From Escherichia phage JSSK01, in the sequence record OQ442786: a stretch of DNA of 44,509 bases; one strand, given 5' to 3'. Each line of letters opens with the position of its first letter. Positions within the stretch are counted from its first letter, which is position 1. The notes beneath the pieces were generated by a model. The model searched no databases. It was not told the DNA's origin and worked only from the letters and a program-made list of their open reading frames with translations. Shown here piece after piece: positions 1 to 43,111 of this stretch. A program made the position numbers and the translations under genes.

Positions 1-128
1 GATGGACGAATACGAAGGCGTTTAGTAAACTTACATCACGCTGCTTGTGCTTGCATACTAAGCCCTGGTAAACCTGAAGCAGCAGCCCAGGCGGTGGAGA
101 CTGCGTAGGGTTCAGGGGCTTATGCCCG

Positions 129-160
129 AAACCCGGACCGCGAATCCGGGTTTTATTTTA
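129..160 (+). terminator. rho-independent terminator (stem CCCGGA/TCCGGG followed by TTTTATTTT)
   Basis: GC hairpin followed by T-run, read directly from sequence. Confidence 0.55.
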
Positions 161-164
161 CCAA

Positions 165-193
165 TTGACACCTAAGACTAATCAGACGATACT
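165..193 (+). promoter_or_regulatory. sigma70-like promoter TTGACA-17-GATACT
   Basis: consensus -35 hexamer, 17 bp spacer, 4/6 -10 hexamer. Confidence 0.45.
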
Positions 194-234
194 TAAATCA
201 CCTCCTGTTCCATCCCTCTGCTCTCCAGTTTTAT

Positions 235-265
235 CCCGGCCCTGACCCAGCCGGGATTTTTTTTA
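235..265 (+). terminator. strong rho-independent terminator (CCCGGC/GCCGGG stem plus T8)
   Basis: 6-bp GC stem, 9-nt loop, run of 8 T. Confidence 0.7.
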
Positions 266-286
266 TCTGTTTTCTGTAATGACTAG

Positions 287-315
287 TTGACTATTATCCT
301 CGACCCTATTATATT
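287..315 (+). promoter_or_regulatory. early promoter TTGACT-17-TATATT with AACGAGA leader box
   Basis: near-consensus hexamers with 17 bp spacer; leader shares ATCGA-AACGAGA box with promoters at ~40039 and ~41735. Confidence 0.55.
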
Positions 316-349: not shown

Positions 350-547
350 ATGGGCAACGTATCGACGATAGAAATAACCGAAGAACTCGAAGTTAAATGT
401 ATCGCATCAGTTATAGGGAATGGTTCGGTGGAAAAACTACAGATGAGGGCTGCTGCGGGCTACATACGCAGGGCTAATAGCGCGCAGACTGATGTTTTAC
501 GTAAACGTTACCTCGTGAAAGCGTTAGAAATACTGGAGAATAACTAA
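350..547 (+). CDS. hypothetical early protein (65 aa)
   Basis: ATG ORF after purine-rich GGAG...GAGAGAAA leader; first ORF downstream of promoter; no recognisable motif. Confidence 0.5.
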   Translation: MGNVSTIEITEELEVKCIASVIGNGSVEKLQMRAAAGYIRRANSAQTDVLRKRYLVKALEILENN

Positions 548-696
548 TGAAAATTACAGATATCGAAGCATTCAAAGACGCACAACTGATGGCACGCATC
601 GCCGTTAGCAACCTGAGCAACAGCATCCCAGCGGCTGCATTCTGGTTCGCCGCGATGCAGACACTGAAAGCAGCTTATGCAGGAGAGAAGAAATGA
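547..696 (+). CDS. hypothetical small protein (49 aa)
   Basis: not in track (<60 aa); ATG overlaps upstream stop (TAATG); its stop overlaps next ATG (ATGA). Confidence 0.35.
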   Translation: MKITDIEAFKDAQLMARIAVSNLSNSIPAAAFWFAAMQTLKAAYAGEKK

Positions 697-902
697 TCGA
701 CGTTATCGTTGGTGGCATCTATAAGAGTAATTACTCGTGGGGTGATGTAGGTGAAGTTAGTTTCATTGTAACTGCGGTTGGGTTGGACCACGTACTTATC
801 GCCGACTACCCATTGATGAAATTCAATGAATCCTATTCAGAATATTGTGTTGGTAGAAAGGAGTTCGAGGCTAAATTTAAGTTTGCAGGAGAGAAGAAAT
901 GA
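693..902 (+). CDS. hypothetical early protein (69 aa)
   Basis: ATGA start/stop coupling with flanking ORFs. Confidence 0.5.
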   Translation: MIDVIVGGIYKSNYSWGDVGEVSFIVTAVGLDHVLIADYPLMKFNESYSEYCVGRKEFEAKFKFAGEKK

Positions 903-1096
903 AAGTTAAAGCCGCTAAAATTCTCTGGTTAGCCGCCCTTGACTATGTGACAGAGGGTAAAGTGTACGATGTGTACAACCCGACAGCTACTGGTTTCGGT
1001 TATATAGACTCCGACGACGACTGCTATATTTTCATAGACTTTGGTAACGATGAAGGTGATGGCTTCCACGGCGTTAAATGGGAGATTGTAGAATGA
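899..1096 (+). CDS. hypothetical early protein (65 aa)
   Basis: ATGA-coupled ORF; preceded by the 19-nt junction repeat containing its SD. Confidence 0.5.
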   Translation: MKVKAAKILWLAALDYVTEGKVYDVYNPTATGFGYIDSDDDCYIFIDFGNDEGDGFHGVKWEIVE

Positions 1097-1251
1097 GCGA
1101 ACAAGGTCAAGTAAGCCAACCATTACGAGTAGGCCGTAAAGTCAGTCACGCCCCGTTCCCGTCACGCGAGGAACTGATGAAACGCAACAGTTTCCCGGGG
1201 CCGGACAAGAACAAGTATCTCAATCGCATGTGGGGAGAGCGTAAAGAATGA
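1093..1251 (+). CDS. hypothetical small protein (52 aa)
   Basis: not in track; ATGA coupling at both ends. Confidence 0.35.
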   Translation: MSEQGQVSQPLRVGRKVSHAPFPSREELMKRNSFPGPDKNKYLNRMWGERKE

Positions 1252-2776: not shown

Positions 2777-3289
2777 ATGAAGCTGAAACTCAAGCAGCCA
2801 TCACCAGAGGTGGTGCAAGCTGCACATGAAGAAGCTGTTAGCGCAAACCGTCGCCGTAAACGACCGCGCGGTAAACAGAGCCTTTATCAATCATCCCGTA
2901 ATTCCGCCGCGTTGTGGGACCCGGACTATTGTGACGAATTGATTCGTTTCTTCGACCGCACGTCGTGGGAGGCTATGCCGACCGGTGCGCACGGAGACTA
3001 CAAAGCAGTCATTGCGGATAAACCGCCATCACTGGCTCGCTTCGCCTTACACATCGGTGTCACTATCCCGATTATTAAGCTGTGGCTGCGCGAGATTCCC
3101 TCATTTGCAGAAGCCTATGAAACGGCACAGGCGCTGGAAGAGGCGTATTTCACTGAGAATGGGGCCGCCGGTATCTCTGCTACGTTCGCCGCCGCTAAGC
3201 TGGGGCTGAATAAAACAGTTGTCGCCGAAGAAGTACGCGACGAGCCAATCAGTGAAGTAACAATTAAGGTGGTGTCCGGTGAACGTTAA
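2777..3289 (+). CDS. terminase small subunit (putative)
   Basis: 170-aa ORF directly upstream of and overlapping the large terminase; start reassigned to ATG 2777 with AAGGGG SD; basic N-terminus; call by position. Confidence 0.5.
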   Translation: MKLKLKQPSPEVVQAAHEEAVSANRRRKRPRGKQSLYQSSRNSAALWDPDYCDELIRFFDRTSWEAMPTGAHGDYKAVIADKPPSLARFALHIGVTIPIIKLWLREIPSFAEAYETAQALEEAYFTENGAAGISATFAAAKLGLNKTVVAEEVRDEPISEVTIKVVSGER

Positions 3290-6054: not shown

Positions 6055-6076
6055 AGCCCCGAAAGGGGCTTTCTTA
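6055..6076 (+). terminator. hairpin AGCCCC-GAAA-GGGGCT with short T-run (attenuator)
   Basis: read from sequence. Confidence 0.35.
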
Positions 6077-6080
6077 TAGT

Positions 6081-7622: not shown

Positions 7623-7643
7623 AGGCCCCGAAAGGGGCTTTTT
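7623..7643 (+). terminator. rho-independent terminator (GGCCCC-GAAA-GGGGC, T5)
   Basis: read from sequence. Confidence 0.65.
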
Positions 7644-7707
7644 AATGCCTGTGATTATTCCAGTTATTCCACCAAATTGTAAATGTAGGAATAAACTATT
7701 CGAATAG

Positions 7708-17736: not shown

Positions 17737-20002
17737 TACCGCTAGCTTGATAGTACGAGTATCATCGACCGGCGTCGATAAAACCACATCACAACTGAAC
17801 GGGCTTACCAAAGCCGCAGGTGCTGCCGCGGCTGCCGTTGTCAGTCTGGAAACCGCAAAACAGGTGTTCAGTGCGCTGGTGGACTCTCAGCGCAACTTCG
17901 ATAAGCTGAACTCCGGCCTCATCACAATGACCGGGAGCGCCGAGAATGCGGCTAAGGCTTTCAGCGTCCTGCAACAGTTCGCAAAAGAGACTCCATACGG
18001 GCTTAACCAGGCGGTTGAGGGCTTCACTAAACTTGTAGCCCTCGGCCTGAACCCCAGCAAAGAGGCGTTAATCTCCTACGGCAATACCGCCGCGGCGATG
18101 GGTAAAGACCTTAATCAGATGATTGAGGCCGTGGCGGACGCCAGTACATTTGAGTTTGAGCGACTGAAAGAGTTTGGTATCAAGTCGTCACAGCAGGCAG
18201 ATACAGTGTCGTTCACGTTCCGCGGCGTTACCACCACGGTTAAAAAGAACTCCGAAGAGATTCAGAAATACCTCCTTAACATCGGCAACACAGATTTCGC
18301 GGGGGCGATGGAGACACGCTCTAAGACGCTAGACGGTCAGTTATCGAGCCTCGCCGACTCCTTCGATGGTCTTGTTCTTGCGGTAGCGCAATCCGGTTTT
18401 GGTGACGCGGTAGGCGAACAAGCGGCAACAGCGGAAGATGCTATTACAGCGCTCACCGACGCTATAGCGTCTAATGAGATAGCCGCCACGCTCCAGGACT
18501 GGACGACACTGTTCAATGAGTCGTTCAAGTTTATTTCTGACGCCTTGAACGACCTGGCATATGACACCGAGGACAAATCCGCGGATATGTCCGACTCGCT
18601 GGGTACTATACCGGATGCTATCCGTGAGTGGCTGCCCGACATCCAGCAGACATTCCACGAGGTTATTGCGTGGTTCCAGCGCATTGACGATTACGCCGTA
18701 GCGTTAGGACAGACCCTTGCCGACGTGTTTGACCCGAGCAAAACTGCAGCGCTCACATTTAAAAACCTGACCGCAGAGGCCGACGCCGCATACGCCGCCA
18801 GCATAAAACGCGCAGAGGCGGAATCACAGGCCATTACAGACAGGTCTAAGCAGCGTAAGAAAGAAATTGAGGAACAGCGCAAGCAGTACGACGAGCGCAA
18901 GAAGCAAGAAATTGACTTAGCCAGCCTTGTTAATAAAAATGGTGGAACTGGCAGCACCGGAAACACCGACGATAAAGCAGCAAAAGCCGCCGCCAAGAAA
19001 GCAGAACAATTGCGGAATCAGGCGCAAGATTACCTCGACACTTTGGCCCGCCAGAACAACGATGAGTTAAAGGCTATCGACGCGCAGGAACAGCAGAAAC
19101 TGGCTAAGGCAAAAGAGTTCTACAGCCAGGGCGCGCTGTCACTGAAAGAATACGAGCAAGCAAAAACGGCTATTGTCCTGGAGGCAGGGCAAAAACGACA
19201 AGATGAACTAGATAAACGCCAGAAAGAAGCCCAGGAAAAGCAACAGAAAGGCGACGACTTCATGGCTCAGATTATGGGTCAGAACGCAACTGAGCTTGAG
19301 CTTCTCGACATCCAGGAACAGCAGAAACTGGCTGTCGCCGATAAGTATCGAGAACAGGGGCTTATTAACGAGGAGCAGTATCAAGCGGCGCTTAACGCTA
19401 TCAATGAGCAATACGCCACAAAACGCGCTGACGCAACGGCAACGGCCTTTGGTAACATGGCCTCAAACATCGGGTCTGCGTTGGGTGAGGCTTCTGGCGC
19501 GTACAAGGCATTCGCTATCGTACAGGCCACCATAGCCACGTACACCGCGGCTATCGAGGCGTACAAGTCCACGGCGGCTATCCCTGTAGTTGGCCCGTTC
19601 CTGGCCCCTGTAGCCGCTGCCGCTGCCGTTGGGGCTGGTATGGCGCAGGTTTCCGCTATCAGGTCCGCGCGTGAGCAGGGCGGTCAGTTATCTGCGGGGC
19701 AGGCTTCCACCATCGCCGAACGCGGTAAACCAGAAGTTATCATGCCGGCTGGCGCATCTCGTGTTCGCACAGCACAGCAGATGAAAGAAATTATGGGGCA
19801 AAACGGGTCTTCTTCCGGCCCGTCTAATGTTACTATCGTAAACAACACGAGTTCTCAAATCGGCAACGTATCCACTGAGCAAGATGATGAAGGCCGTTTG
19901 CGAATCATCATCGAGGAGCAGGTGGCTGCCTCTTTGCAGAACAGCAACAGCAAGATTAGCAAGGCCCGCAAAGCCACAAGAAATGCGCCGGGGTTCAAAT
20001 AA
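17714..20002 (+). CDS. tail tape measure protein
   Basis: 762 aa, longest ORF in tail block; repeated EQQKLA coiled-coil segments; Gly/Ala-rich hydrophobic C-terminal region. Confidence 0.9.
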   Translation: MKVEIMADTASLIVRVSSTGVDKTTSQLNGLTKAAGAAAAAVVSLETAKQVFSALVDSQRNFDKLNSGLITMTGSAENAAKAFSVLQQFAKETPYGLNQAVEGFTKLVALGLNPSKEALISYGNTAAAMGKDLNQMIEAVADASTFEFERLKEFGIKSSQQADTVSFTFRGVTTTVKKNSEEIQKYLLNIGNTDFAGAMETRSKTLDGQLSSLADSFDGLVLAVAQSGFGDAVGEQAATAEDAITALTDAIASNEIAATLQDWTTLFNESFKFISDALNDLAYDTEDKSADMSDSLGTIPDAIREWLPDIQQTFHEVIAWFQRIDDYAVALGQTLADVFDPSKTAALTFKNLTAEADAAYAASIKRAEAESQAITDRSKQRKKEIEEQRKQYDERKKQEIDLASLVNKNGGTGSTGNTDDKAAKAAAKKAEQLRNQAQDYLDTLARQNNDELKAIDAQEQQKLAKAKEFYSQGALSLKEYEQAKTAIVLEAGQKRQDELDKRQKEAQEKQQKGDDFMAQIMGQNATELELLDIQEQQKLAVADKYREQGLINEEQYQAALNAINEQYATKRADATATAFGNMASNIGSALGEASGAYKAFAIVQATIATYTAAIEAYKSTAAIPVVGPFLAPVAAAAAVGAGMAQVSAIRSAREQGGQLSAGQASTIAERGKPEVIMPAGASRVRTAQQMKEIMGQNGSSSGPSNVTIVNNTSSQIGNVSTEQDDEGRLRIIIEEQVAASLQNSNSKISKARKATRNAPGFK

Positions 20003-29885: not shown

Positions 29886-30173
29886 CTAACTATAATAGCT
29901 CGCTATTAGGGTGTCAACCTGTTTAAACGAACCGACGACAAAAACATTCGCACCACGTTTACGCATCCGCTCGTGCTCGCGTAACTGGTGCGGGTCAGGC
30001 TTCGTGTTTTCGTCTTTCTTAACCTCGACGAACCAGACGATGCCGCCTGGGAGAATTGCCAGCAGGTCGGGAGCACCCGAACGTCCTTCGTAGGAGAGCT
30101 TACGAACGAGGCCCCCCAGGGCCTCGAATCGGTCTTTTGCGTATTTCTGTATTTTGCCCTCAGGAGTACTCAT
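29886..30173 (-). CDS. VRR-NUC domain nuclease
   Basis: GAPDLLAILPGGIVWFVEVKK matches the VRR-NUC signature (PD...EVK). Confidence 0.65.
   Translation of the reverse strand: MSTPEGKIQKYAKDRFEALGGLVRKLSYEGRSGAPDLLAILPGGIVWFVEVKKDENTKPDPHQLREHERMRKRGANVFVVGSFKQVDTLIASYYS
29889..29917 (-). promoter_or_regulatory. replication-module promoter cassette copy 1 (TTGACA-17-TATAGT)
   Basis: plus-strand text AACTATAATAGC...CTATT...GTGTCAAC; three near-identical copies. Confidence 0.55.
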
Positions 30174-33233: not shown

Positions 33234-33287
33234 CTTAATTTCTCGCTTTTCAGTTTACTCCTGGAAGCTGCCAGGCCAGTGATTAGA

Positions 33288-33316
33288 ACTATAATAGCTA
33301 ACTATTCAGGTGTCAA
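33288..33316 (-). promoter_or_regulatory. replication-module promoter cassette copy 2 (TTGACA-17-TATAGT)
   Basis: plus-strand text GAACTATAATAGCTAACTATTCAGGTGTCAACAC. Confidence 0.55.
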
Positions 33317-33320
33317 CACT

Positions 33321-36379: not shown

Positions 36380-36407
36380 ATCTGCCCCTCTCGTTTGGTA
36401 TGGGCTA

Positions 36408-36436
36408 ACTATAATAGCGAACTATTCACATGTCAA
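36408..36436 (-). promoter_or_regulatory. replication-module promoter cassette copy 3 (TTGACA-17-TATAGT)
   Basis: plus-strand text TAACTATAATAGCGAACTATTCACATGTCAATGG. Confidence 0.55.
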
Positions 36437-36500
36437 TGGGCTTTTCTAAAATAATTAATATGGTACTATTCACATATCAACTGACTAAGGAGTAACTGAC

Positions 36501-42612: not shown

Positions 42613-42878
42613 TTATGGTACAGAGATATTTATTACAAGGCGGTTTAATAGGGCCGCACGACGATGGTGACTGGGTTGGTTACGAAGACTACGCGGAACT
42701 TGAGCGTAAGTTCAATGAACTCAGGACATGGCGTACGCAGATGCTCAATGCCGCTTTCGACTTTTTAGCGTGGGCAGAAAAAGCGGAAGCCGAGTTACAG
42801 AAATACAAAGACCAGTTCCCTGATTACGTCGAGTGCGCGAACTGTGGGTCAGTTACACATGTGGAAGGAGCGCAGTGA
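42609..42878 (+). CDS. hypothetical protein, paralog A of tandem pair
   Basis: shares G-[DE]-[WY]-V-x-YEDYA-[EK]-LE-x-K block with the next ORF; track start is GTG, ATG at 42615 possible. Confidence 0.5.
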   Translation: MIMVQRYLLQGGLIGPHDDGDWVGYEDYAELERKFNELRTWRTQMLNAAFDFLAWAEKAEAELQKYKDQFPDYVECANCGSVTHVEGAQ

Positions 42879-42880
42879 TT

Positions 42881-43111
42881 ATGGTTATTCGTAAAGGCTT
42901 TTATGAAGATGGTAATTTCGATAGTAAAGTAAATGGGGAGTACGTAAGCTACGAAGACTACGCGAAACTCGAAGCCAAACTTCTGGAAATAAAAGCAGCA
43001 GCCAGTTGTCTTGTGCGAGAAGCGAGTAAGGTGTATAGCGATTATAGTGACGTTATAGCGCCTGAGTTTGTAGACCAGCAAACCATATACGAACTAGGTA
43101 TTCTGCTATGA
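42881..43111 (+). CDS. hypothetical protein, paralog B of tandem pair
   Basis: track ORF 42833-43111; start moved to ATG 42881 just after upstream stop. Confidence 0.5.
   Translation: MVIRKGFYEDGNFDSKVNGEYVSYEDYAKLEAKLLEIKAAASCLVREASKVYSDYSDVIAPEFVDQQTIYELGILL

What the first reader, a model, noticed from the sequence alone, without database searches (positions are those of the whole stretch)
678..902. 19-nt perfect direct repeat forming two consecutive gene junctions in the early block
TGCAGGAGAGAAGAAATGA occurs at ~678-696 and ~884-902. Each copy encodes the C-terminal AGEKK-stop of one ORF and the SD plus ATG of the next. This looks like a recombination junction used for modular exchange of early genes.
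Basis: seen in the sequence. Interest (0 to 1): 0.35.

Follow-up and report, generated by a model that had tools for sequence, protein, structure and literature searches.

The report
Repeated junction flanking a swappable gene
A 19-base stop/start junction is repeated on both sides of a small accessory gene in a Kagunavirus-type coliphage, and related phages gain, lose and re-pair genes exactly at this junction; it is a clean example of an already described way that phage genomes shuffle genes.

Summary
TGCAGGAGAGAAGAAATGA occurs exactly at 678-696 and 884-902. It is the longest exact direct repeat in the window (0.004 such pairs expected by chance). Each copy holds the last codons (AGEKK-stop) of one gene, an AGGAG ribosome-binding site, and the overlapping ATG of the next gene.

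The window is a Kagunavirus-like siphophage (Guernseyvirinae). Some relatives lack exactly 206 bp (one repeat copy plus gene B) and keep one copy. Across relatives, the junction after gene A is followed by at least eight different genes. B itself has four different right-hand neighbours. An unrelated cassette (E) has the same flanks. Similarity between genomes switches at the repeats.

B's tail and junction follow the upstream gene's tail in each genome. The same gene family is flanked by lineage-specific repeats, with precise empty sites, in two unrelated phage groups.

Best reading: a portable translational-coupling junction that also serves as short homology for inserting, deleting and re-pairing cassettes. 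The principle is already known (lambdoid boundary sequences, T4 PeSLs), so this is a new member of a known kind. The enzymatic mechanism is inferred, not shown.

The parts
547..696 (+). Gene A (49 aa, phrog_2180, unknown function). It is conserved across Guernseyvirinae and its last 19 nt are junction copy J1.
   Evidence: A homologues were found in 58 loci, and 40 of them end in the exact 19-mer.
678..696 (+). J1, junction copy 1: codons A-G-E-K-K-stop of A, SD AGGAG (681-685), 7-nt spacer, ATG of B (693-695) overlapping the TGA stop (694-696).
693..902 (+). Gene B (69 aa, phrog_20019, unknown function). A rare accessory cassette, and the unit that is present or absent in relatives.
   Evidence: (20 of 50,697 phage records).
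884..902 (+). J2, junction copy 2: codons A-G-E-K-K-stop of B, SD AGGAG (887-891), ATG of C (899-901) overlapping the TGA stop (900-902).
697..902 (+). The 206-bp indel unit (equivalently 678-883): B body plus one junction copy. It is absent from 22664BS2, K-01 and BEU33.
   Evidence: Alignment A1.
899..1096 (+). Gene C (65 aa, no family match). A second optional cassette of the same slot. Its own 3' junction ATGGGAGATTGTAGAATGA is not a J copy.
1093..1251 (+). Gene D (52 aa, DUF2737). It is the conserved right border of the variable slot. In some relatives its 3' end carries the 15-nt J core, followed by an extra cassette.
165..315 (+). Two sigma-70 promoter-like sites (165-193, 287-315) upstream of the small-gene block. 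They are possible promoters of the operon that contains the junctions.
   Evidence: The number of sites is not above the shuffle expectation, so this is only suggestive.

Best explanation
J is a portable translational-coupling junction. It comprises the last five codons plus stop of the upstream gene, a strong Shine-Dalgarno site, and the overlapping start codon of the next gene. Its home position is the conserved 3' end of gene A. Cassette B carries a second identical copy at its own 3' end.

Because the two copies are identical, short-homology recombination between them removes, adds or re-pairs cassettes while always leaving an intact stop/SD/start junction. Every product therefore stays expressed. 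The recombination could be unequal exchange between co-infecting genomes, looping-out within one genome, single-strand annealing, or copy-choice during replication.

Shown: the repeat; the precise one-copy empty alleles; multiple alternative neighbours; similarity breakpoints at the repeats; co-variation of the two copies within genomes; and the same architecture for an unrelated cassette and in unrelated phage lineages.

Inferred: that the crossover occurs inside the repeat, which enzymes do it, and how the first duplication in each lineage arose.
For: (1) Precise indel. BUCT825, GZMU_E2010 and phiSD1 have A-J-B-J-C. 22664BS2, K-01 and BEU33 have A-J-C, lacking exactly 206 bp with one J left.

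(2) All four B/C combinations exist: B+C+ (window), B+C- (L051/L061, VT223, SZH-1), B-C+, and B-C-. B's right neighbour is C, D, f29 (ST20) or an f11 remnant (SETP13), always across J. The only sequence shared between B and those neighbours' alternative contexts is J.

(3) The exact J after gene A is followed by 8 different gene families in 40 loci.

(4) Unrelated cassette E (64 aa...LAGEKK*) sits as A-J-E-J'-D with an 18/19 copy in the 5 genomes read at sequence level: L013=L055, L099, L115, L116, and L028, whose downstream sequence matches E. Two further GenBank records match E but were not read.

(5) Breakpoints. VT223 vs the window is 88.5% identical in A and 98.9% in B. WAO78-1 is 83% in B and 96% in C. 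The switches fall across J1 and J2.

(6) Co-variation. In SETP13, A ends TGCAGGAGAACAAAAATGA and B ends TGCAAGAGAACAAAAATGA.

(7) B homologues outside this slot have other tails: RP180 VGGVESD*, Av-05 HSDAA*.

(8) Replication in unrelated lineages. IME207 and BUCT_XGG carry B flanked by GGAG(A/G)AAACAAAATGA. C1 and Skate lack exactly 206 bp and keep one junction (alignment A2). In the lambdoid-type contig L127, B is flanked by TGAGCTGATGGAG; L177 is the empty site; L172 has a different cassette with the same flanks.

(9) The longest common substring between B's 5' flank and its 3' end within a genome is 19, 14, 12 and 13 nt in four lineages. Unrelated cross-genome pairs give at most 9 nt, and no value of 12 or more occurred in 2,100 shuffles.
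Against: Other cassettes of the same slot (C, f11, f13, f26) are exchanged precisely at ATGA with only about 5 nt of flank identity. Long repeats are therefore not necessary, and selection for intact genes alone can produce gene-boundary joints.

Nineteen bp is at or below the minimal efficient length for RecA-dependent recombination in E. coli (my own knowledge). No Red-beta, Erf or RecT-type annealing protein is annotated in the closest relative; only a DUF2800 nuclease is.

A simple crossover model does not by itself explain why both copies are of the local type in each lineage. Homogenisation, or a mechanism that duplicates the junction on insertion, is also needed.

No B-plus and B-minus pair that is near-identical genome-wide was found, so no very recent event is documented. 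All evidence is comparative.
Confidence: 0.7

Rival explanations
1. Footprint only. One ancient illegitimate recombination fused B to the last codons of A and so created the duplication. Later spread of B happened by ordinary homologous recombination in the long flanking genes. On this view J is a scar and not a site that is used.
For: Gene-boundary joints without long repeats are common in the same slot. The literature treats illegitimate recombination followed by selection as the main alternative model (PMC3233612). B homologues elsewhere have different tails, which fits a fusion event.
Against: B is joined through J to four different right-hand neighbours, and no other sequence is shared there. 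E has the same flanks. The two copies co-vary in SETP13. Lineage-specific flank repeats recur in IME207-like and L127-like phages, each with a precise empty site. A single scar cannot account for these repeated, independent patterns.
Confidence: 0.15
2. Insertion-generated duplication. The cassette enters a stop/start junction by a process that copies the local junction twice. This could be copy-choice template switching or repair of a staggered break, similar to a target-site duplication. The repeat would then be a product of insertion rather than a pre-existing homologous site.
For: In each of four lineages both flanks are of the local type and differ between lineages. A crossover between a foreign junction and a local junction would not give this directly.
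Against: No transposase, integrase or homing endonuclease lies in or next to the cassettes; B is 69 aa with no Pfam family. In the window the segment between the repeats has neither its own start nor its own stop, so an in-frame insertion would have to be exact. In L127 and L172 the repeat is followed on the left by a shared linker AGCCA(G/A)CAATGA that travels with two different cassettes, which fits recombination among existing junction variants better.
Confidence: 0.1
3. Convergent selection. Both junctions are identical because each independently evolved to the same optimal ribosome-binding, coupling or regulatory sequence. One example would be a translational operator recognised by a phage protein.
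For: J contains a canonical AGGAG at 7 nt from the ATG and is unstructured. The A-end junction is about twice as conserved as the rest of A at third-codon positions, 0.077 vs 0.176.
Against: Neighbouring junctions of the same operon are quite different, for example ATGGGAGATTGTAGAATGA and GGGAGAGCGTAAAGAATGA, so there is no single optimum. Identity covers 4 nt upstream of the SD and all synonymous sites. It also does not explain the precise empty sites or the breakpoints.
Confidence: 0.04
4. Chance repeat of a purine-rich ribosome-binding region.
For: SD plus purine spacer plus ATGA is a common pattern. The same 19-mer also occurs in unrelated GC-rich phage contigs.
Against: The expectation is 0.0036 pairs per window, with 0 of 100 shuffles matching. 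The copies sit at consecutive junctions. The comparative evidence above also argues against chance.
Confidence: 0.01

Closest known systems
Conserved 'boundary' or 'linker' sequences between genes of lambdoid phages (Susskind & Botstein 1978; Clark et al. 2001, HK620; cited through PMC3233612 and PMC2327257)
   Same: A short sequence conserved at gene boundaries, flanking alternative genes in related phages and proposed to target homologous recombination so that whole genes are exchanged. The block here even contains nin-like genes (DUF2737; 'Nin protein' annotations). I found the same architecture in a lambdoid-type contig group.
   Different: The host genome is a Kagunavirus-type Guernseyvirinae siphophage whose closest relative (BUCT825) has no integrase or annealing recombinase annotated. 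The element is not intergenic: it is coding (a shared C-terminal pentapeptide) plus SD plus an overlapping stop/start. I could not read Clark et al. 2001 itself, so the detailed comparison rests on secondary descriptions.
PeSL cassettes (promoter-early stem-loops) of T4-type phages (Arbiol et al. 2010, PMC2839356)
   Same: An ORFan is flanked by two copies of a conserved regulatory element in one phage and replaced by a single copy in a close relative. The element supplies expression signals to whatever follows it. Recombination between copies is proposed to excise or insert cassettes.
   Different: PeSLs are about 100 bp and consist of a sigma-70 promoter plus a terminator stem-loop. J is 19 nt with no promoter and no structure, and acts at the level of translation. 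Mini-circles were shown experimentally for PeSLs; nothing has been shown experimentally here.
Deletion between short direct repeats in phage genomes (classical T7 and T4 work; my own knowledge, not retrieved)
   Same: Loss of the segment between two short direct repeats plus one repeat copy, leaving one copy. This is exactly the A-J-B-J-C to A-J-C relation.
   Different: Those are spontaneous, mostly deleterious or neutral laboratory deletions at arbitrary repeats. Here the repeat is a functional junction, the products are all in-frame and expressed, and the reverse (gain and re-pairing) is also seen.
Integron gene cassettes (attC x attI)
   Same: Small promoterless ORFs inserted one after another at a fixed site and expressed from upstream signals. 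Cassettes are bounded by a repeated element.
   Different: No integrase is present. J has no imperfect inverted repeat or folded attC-like structure. The repeat lies inside coding sequence.

Membership tests
Boundary-sequence-mediated modular exchange (lambdoid model) | A short sequence conserved at a gene boundary among related phages | tested here: met
   The exact 19-mer ends gene A in 40 of 58 loci, and most of the rest differ by 1-3 nt. Third-codon variability is 0.077 in J vs 0.176 in the rest of A.
Boundary-sequence-mediated modular exchange (lambdoid model) | The same sequence is joined to different, non-homologous genes in different genomes | tested here: met
   Eight gene families follow A-J. 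Four different genes follow B-J.
Boundary-sequence-mediated modular exchange (lambdoid model) | Mosaic similarity breakpoints coincide with the sequence | tested here: met
   VT223 goes from 88.5% to 98.9% across J1. WAO78-1 goes from 83% to 96% across J2. Only a few pairs were examined; no formal breakpoint statistics were run.
Boundary-sequence-mediated modular exchange (lambdoid model) | Recombination actually occurs within the sequence | not testable with these tools
   This needs crosses or deep sequencing of lysates.
PeSL-type regulatory cassettes | A composite sigma-70 promoter plus stem-loop terminator of about 100 bp | tested here: not met
   There is no promoter-like site at 678-696 or 884-902. 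The folding z-scores of +0.27 and +1.55 show no structure.
PeSL-type regulatory cassettes | An ORFan flanked by two element copies in one phage, with a single copy in a relative | tested here: met
   Alignments A1 and A2; L127 vs L177.
PeSL-type regulatory cassettes | Circular excision products (mini-circles) | not testable with these tools
   This requires inverse PCR on infected cells or lysates.
Integron cassette array | A tyrosine-recombinase integrase next to the array, and attC sites with imperfect inverted repeats | tested here: not met
   No integrase is annotated in the whole BUCT825 genome. J is unstructured.
Transposable element with target-site duplication | A transposase gene and terminal inverted repeats inside the duplicated target | tested here: not met
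   The 187-bp segment between the repeats encodes only the body of a 69-aa protein with no Pfam family. No transposase is annotated.

The most novel reading that the evidence does not exclude
Small accessory ORFs such as phrog_20019 (B) may form a recombinase-independent cassette system targeted at translationally coupled stop/start junctions. The cassette would move between unrelated phage families: Guernseyvirinae, Skate-like/Shuimuvirus-type siphophages and lambdoid-type phages. On entry, the local junction would be duplicated or homogenised, so the cassette inherits the C-terminal tail and ribosome-binding site of its new upstream neighbour. That would make 'tail plus SD plus ATGA' junctions a general att-like currency for gene flow among phages, possibly through J+ORF mini-circles.
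Probability: 0.15. Interest if true: 0.6.

Novelty: new member of a known kind. Interest (0 to 1): 0.4.

Why it matters
How phage mosaicism arises is a long-running question. [quoted passage not shown] The other is random illegitimate joining followed by selection (PMC3233612).

This locus is an unusually clean natural case for the targeted model:
- The repeat is a perfect 19 nt.
- Precise empty sites exist.
- Two unrelated cassettes share the same flanks.
- The two copies co-vary within genomes.
- The same gene family shows lineage-specific flank repeats in several unrelated phage groups.

It also shows that the boundary element can be a coding/translational junction rather than an intergenic or transcriptional one. 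That explains why the shuffled genes share a C-terminal pentapeptide.

In practice, the phage is cultivable on E. coli, so the model can be tested directly. Annotators and phage engineers should expect the 206-bp cassette to be unstable.

Tried and rejected
- **B as a tandem duplicate of A:** rejected. Nucleotide identity of the gene bodies is about 0.23, which is random, and they fall in different PHROG families.
- **RNA structure or riboregulator at J:** no significant folding.
- **Promoter or terminator cassette at J (PeSL-like):** none found.
- **Function of A, B, C:** Pfam gave nothing and PHROGs gave only 'unknown function' families. Only D matches DUF2737. I ran no further search on B, because its function does not bear on the finding.
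- **Dedicated recombinase:** the whole-genome annotation of BUCT825 shows no integrase, transposase, Erf, RecT or Red-beta. It shows only a DUF2800 nuclease, polymerase, helicases and an HNH-type 'endonuclease' in the lysis region.
- **Kagunavirus literature on this region:** nothing specific was found. The one breeding study that includes a Kagunavirus (22664BS2) analysed recombination only in other phage families.
- **The 12 GC-rich contigs with the identical 19-mer:** I asked whether they are related to the window. They are not. The shared 19-mer there is probably chance or convergence, and I left it as a side observation.
- **Similarity of RP180's B tail to the usual D tail:** too weak to use.

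Full report
**Observation.** The 19-mer TGCAGGAGAGAAGAAATGA occurs exactly twice in the window, at 678-696 and 884-902 on the + strand. No further match appears even with three mismatches allowed, and none appeared in 100 dinucleotide-preserving shuffles. Identity ends sharply at both sides. It is the longest exact direct repeat in the whole 44.5-kb window; the others are 16 nt or shorter. About 0.004 such pairs are expected by chance.

Copy 1 (J1) is the 3' end of ORF A (547..696, 49 aa...AAYAGEKK*) and contains the ATG of ORF B (693..902, 69 aa). Copy 2 (J2) is the 3' end of B (...KFKFAGEKK*) and contains the ATG of ORF C (899..1096). In each copy AGGAG lies 7 nt before the ATG, and the stop overlaps the start as ATGA.

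**Context.** The window is a Kagunavirus-like siphophage of the Guernseyvirinae. The closest records are Escherichia phages BUCT825, vB_EcoS_XY1 and vB_VIPECOTH07, and 388 phage records match the region. In BUCT825 the run of small, translationally coupled genes lies between the lysis cassette and the terminase genes, so calling it 'early' is unverified. Two sigma-70-like sites precede it.

A is phrog_2180 and B is phrog_20019, both of unknown function. C has no family. The next gene, D (1093..1251), is DUF2737. Most junctions in the block are ATGA overlaps preceded by GGAG, but their sequences differ from one another.

**Presence/absence.** BUCT825, GZMU_E2010 and phiSD1 have A-J-B-J-C with both copies perfect, even though phiSD1's B body is only about 87% identical. 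22664BS2, K-01 and BEU33 have A-J-C. They lack exactly 206 bp, which is one copy plus the B body, and retain a single J.

**Wider sample.** A scan of IMG/VR for the exact 19-mer gave 46 contigs, of which 33 are Guernseyvirinae-like with gene A upstream of the 19-mer. A protein-based search for A gave 51 loci. In 58 loci in total, gene A ends in the exact 19-mer in 40 and in 1-3-nt variants in most others.

The slot between A and D can be empty, or it can hold C, B, B+C, or one of at least six other unrelated small genes (E=f19, f11, f13, f17, f26, f29). All four B/C combinations exist. B's right-hand neighbour across J2 is C (window group, WAO78-1, phiSD1), D (L061, VT223, SZH-1), f29 (ST20) or a truncated f11 (SETP13). 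J is the only sequence that B-carrying and B-lacking genomes share at that position. These re-pairings are therefore most simply explained by exchange within J.

**A second cassette.** E (64 aa) is unrelated to B, yet it also ends ...LAGEKK* and sits as A-J-E-J'-D with an 18/19 copy at its 3' end. This holds in the five genomes read at sequence level: L013=L055, L028, L099, L115 and L116. Two further GenBank records match E but were not read.

The 3' flank of f17 is 16/19 identical to J in both slots where it occurs. Some D genes end in the 15-nt J core (GGGGAGAGAAGAAATGA...WGEKK*), and four of five of these are followed by an extra cassette. In RP180 that extra cassette is B itself.

**Breakpoints.** Against the window, Jerseyvirus VT223 is 88.5% identical in the A body and 98.9% in the B body. 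WAO78-1 is 83% identical in B and 96% in C. phiSD1 runs 100% (ORF1), 91% (A), 87% (B), 72% (C) and 93% (D). Similarity thus switches at gene junctions, including J1 and J2.

**Co-variation.** In Jerseyvirus SETP13, A ends with the Jersey-type variant TGCAGGAGAACAAAAATGA (AGEQK*) and B ends with TGCAAGAGAACAAAAATGA (AREQK*). The two copies share three substitutions relative to the Kagunavirus type. Outside this slot, B homologues end differently: RP180 ...FTFVGGVESD*, Av-05 ...FIYHSDAA*.

**Replication in unrelated phages.** In IME207 (Shuimuvirus) and BUCT_XGG_PSM_3377 (Skatevirus), B lies between TTGGGAGAAACAAAATGA and G(T/C)GGAGGAAACAAAATGA. The upstream gene ends ...LGETK* and B ends ...VEETK*. 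Phages C1 and Skate lack exactly 206 bp and have one junction (alignment A2).

In a lambdoid-type contig (L127), B is flanked by TGAGCTGATGGAG, with upstream tail ...ELMESQQ* and B tail ...CELMEVGG*. L177 is the empty site with a single copy and the same downstream gene. L172 carries a different 49-aa cassette ending ...DELMEVAE* between the same repeats.

The longest identical run between B's 5' flank and its 3' end within a genome is 19, 14, 12 and 13 nt in these four lineages. Unrelated cross-genome pairs give at most 9 nt, and no value of 12 or more occurred in 2,100 shuffles. In three other contexts (RP180, Av-05, the L122 group) there is no flank repeat.

**Interpretation.** J is first of all a functional junction. 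It has a strong, unstructured ribosome-binding site embedded in the last codons of the upstream gene, with stop/start overlap, which is the standard arrangement for translational coupling (established knowledge). Its nucleotide conservation at the end of A is about twice that of the rest of A at third-codon positions.

Because a cassette that carries a second copy can be lost, gained or re-paired through the repeat without disturbing expression, the junction also works as a portable recombination joint. The crossover within J, the enzymes, and the origin of the duplication in each lineage are inferred, not shown.

Nineteen bp is short for RecA-dependent exchange (my own knowledge), and no annealing recombinase is annotated. 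RecA-independent routes therefore seem more likely: slippage or copy-choice, single-strand annealing after a break, or the phage's own nuclease. I cannot discriminate between them.

A simple crossover between foreign and local junctions does not explain why both copies are local in every lineage. Either the copies are homogenised, or insertion itself duplicates the junction.

Cassettes with intact repeats (B, E) are rare: B is in 20 of 50,697 records and E in 4. The common cassette C has no repeat. This fits the idea that intact repeats make a cassette unstable, but that is inference.

**Limits.** Other cassettes in the same slot are exchanged exactly at ATGA with only about 5 nt of shared flank. 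Selection on random joints therefore also contributes, and J is not required for every exchange.

[quoted passage not shown] It was supported for lambdoid phages by Clark et al. (2001), as summarised in PMC3233612 and PMC2327257.

The closest experimentally studied analogue is the PeSL element of T4-type phages. There, an ORFan flanked by two PeSLs in RB49 corresponds to a single PeSL in phi1, and mini-circles were detected (PMC2839356). J shares that topology and logic, but it is 19 nt, has no promoter or stem-loop, lies in coding sequence and acts on translation. It fails the defining features of integron cassettes and transposons: no integrase or transposase, no attC-like structure.

I therefore file it as a new member of a known kind. 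It is of moderate interest because it is clean, replicated across lineages and testable in a cultivable coliphage.

Noticed in passing
L007, L011, L012, L021, L023, L025, L029, L030, L036, L043, L044, L047 (IMG/VR; e.g. L012 6524-6542): Twelve GC-rich (55-61%) metagenomic phage contigs, unrelated to the window, carry the identical 19-mer inside a ~33-nt conserved block ATCGACGCCGCCAT+J (...IDAAIAGEKK*, SD, ATG). At least 5 different upstream and 6 different downstream sequences flank it, so this is a conserved junction between variable genes on both sides. The 19-mer identity with the window may be chance or convergence.
   Followed up: partly
L110 (IME207) 672-689 and 881-898; L113 (phage C1); L114 (Skate); L109: In Shuimuvirus, Skatevirus and Deseoctovirus phages the same gene family (phrog_20019) is a 206-bp presence/absence cassette flanked by that lineage's own junction repeat GGAG(A/G)AAACAAAATGA. 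In BUCT_XGG_PSM_3377 the gene has a premature stop (…CVGRK*) while the junction is retained.
   Followed up: yes
L127 668-680 and 877-889; L172 649-663 and 795-809; L177 652-663: In a lambdoid-type group, the gene upstream (116 aa) has alternative tails: ELMEVGE*, ELMESQQ*, ELMEATR*, ELMEVNHASS*. Two unrelated cassettes (a B homologue and a 49-aa Cys-rich ORF) are each bracketed by GAGCTGATGGAG. L177 is the single-copy empty site.
   Followed up: yes
L103 (Raoultella phage RP180) ~2633-2660 and 2811-3020: In RP180, gene A has an in-frame stop inside the junction (GCAGGATAGAAGAAATGA, …AAYAG*). B sits after D instead of after A. D there ends with the 15-nt J core, so D itself is bracketed by J-like sequences.
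   Followed up: partly
L053, L065, L068 (=L042), L081, L103: 3' end of gene D: A variant D ending …WGEKK* (GTGGGGAGAGAAGAAATGA, the J core) occurs in 5 loci, and in 4 of them it is followed by an extra cassette (f24, f30, f31, B). The common ending …WGERKE* is mostly followed directly by the MTDREYEK gene. The sample is small and the genomes are related, so this is only suggestive.
   Followed up: partly
L041/L082 ~3290; L112 (SETP13) 907-945: These look like decayed genes next to junctions. D is reduced to 'MS*' in L041/L082, and a 13-aa remnant of the f11 gene lies after B in SETP13.
   Followed up: no
window 29888-29918, 33287-33317, 36407-36437 (- strand): There are three copies of a 31-nt element. 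On the minus strand it reads TTGACA, 17 nt, TATAGT, with a palindrome (TAATAGC…GCTATTA) in the spacer. This looks like a repeated promoter with an operator.
   Followed up: no
window 6056-6077, 7625-7646, 14385-14406: A repeated GCCCCGAAAGGGGC hairpin followed by a T-rich tail. These are probably intrinsic terminators that share one sequence.
   Followed up: no
window 1217-1229 and 1423-1435: A 13-nt imperfect repeat (ATCTCAATCGCAT / ATCACAATCGCAT) with the same 206-nt spacing as J1/J2. It lies inside D and the MPKITIASL gene and is probably chance.
   Followed up: no
window 19052-19105 / 19280-19333 and 42664-42703 / 42933-42972: Two imperfect direct repeats (54 nt at 74% identity, 40 nt at 78% identity), spaced 228 and 269 nt. 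They may be internal duplications within genes.
   Followed up: no
window 125-160 and 232-262: Read by eye, there are two hairpins followed by T-runs (acccggaccgcgaatccgggttttatttt; cccggccctgacccagccgggatttttttt) just after the endolysin gene. They are interleaved with the two promoter-like sites at 165-193 and 287-315. The consensus scan did not list these hairpins.
   Followed up: no
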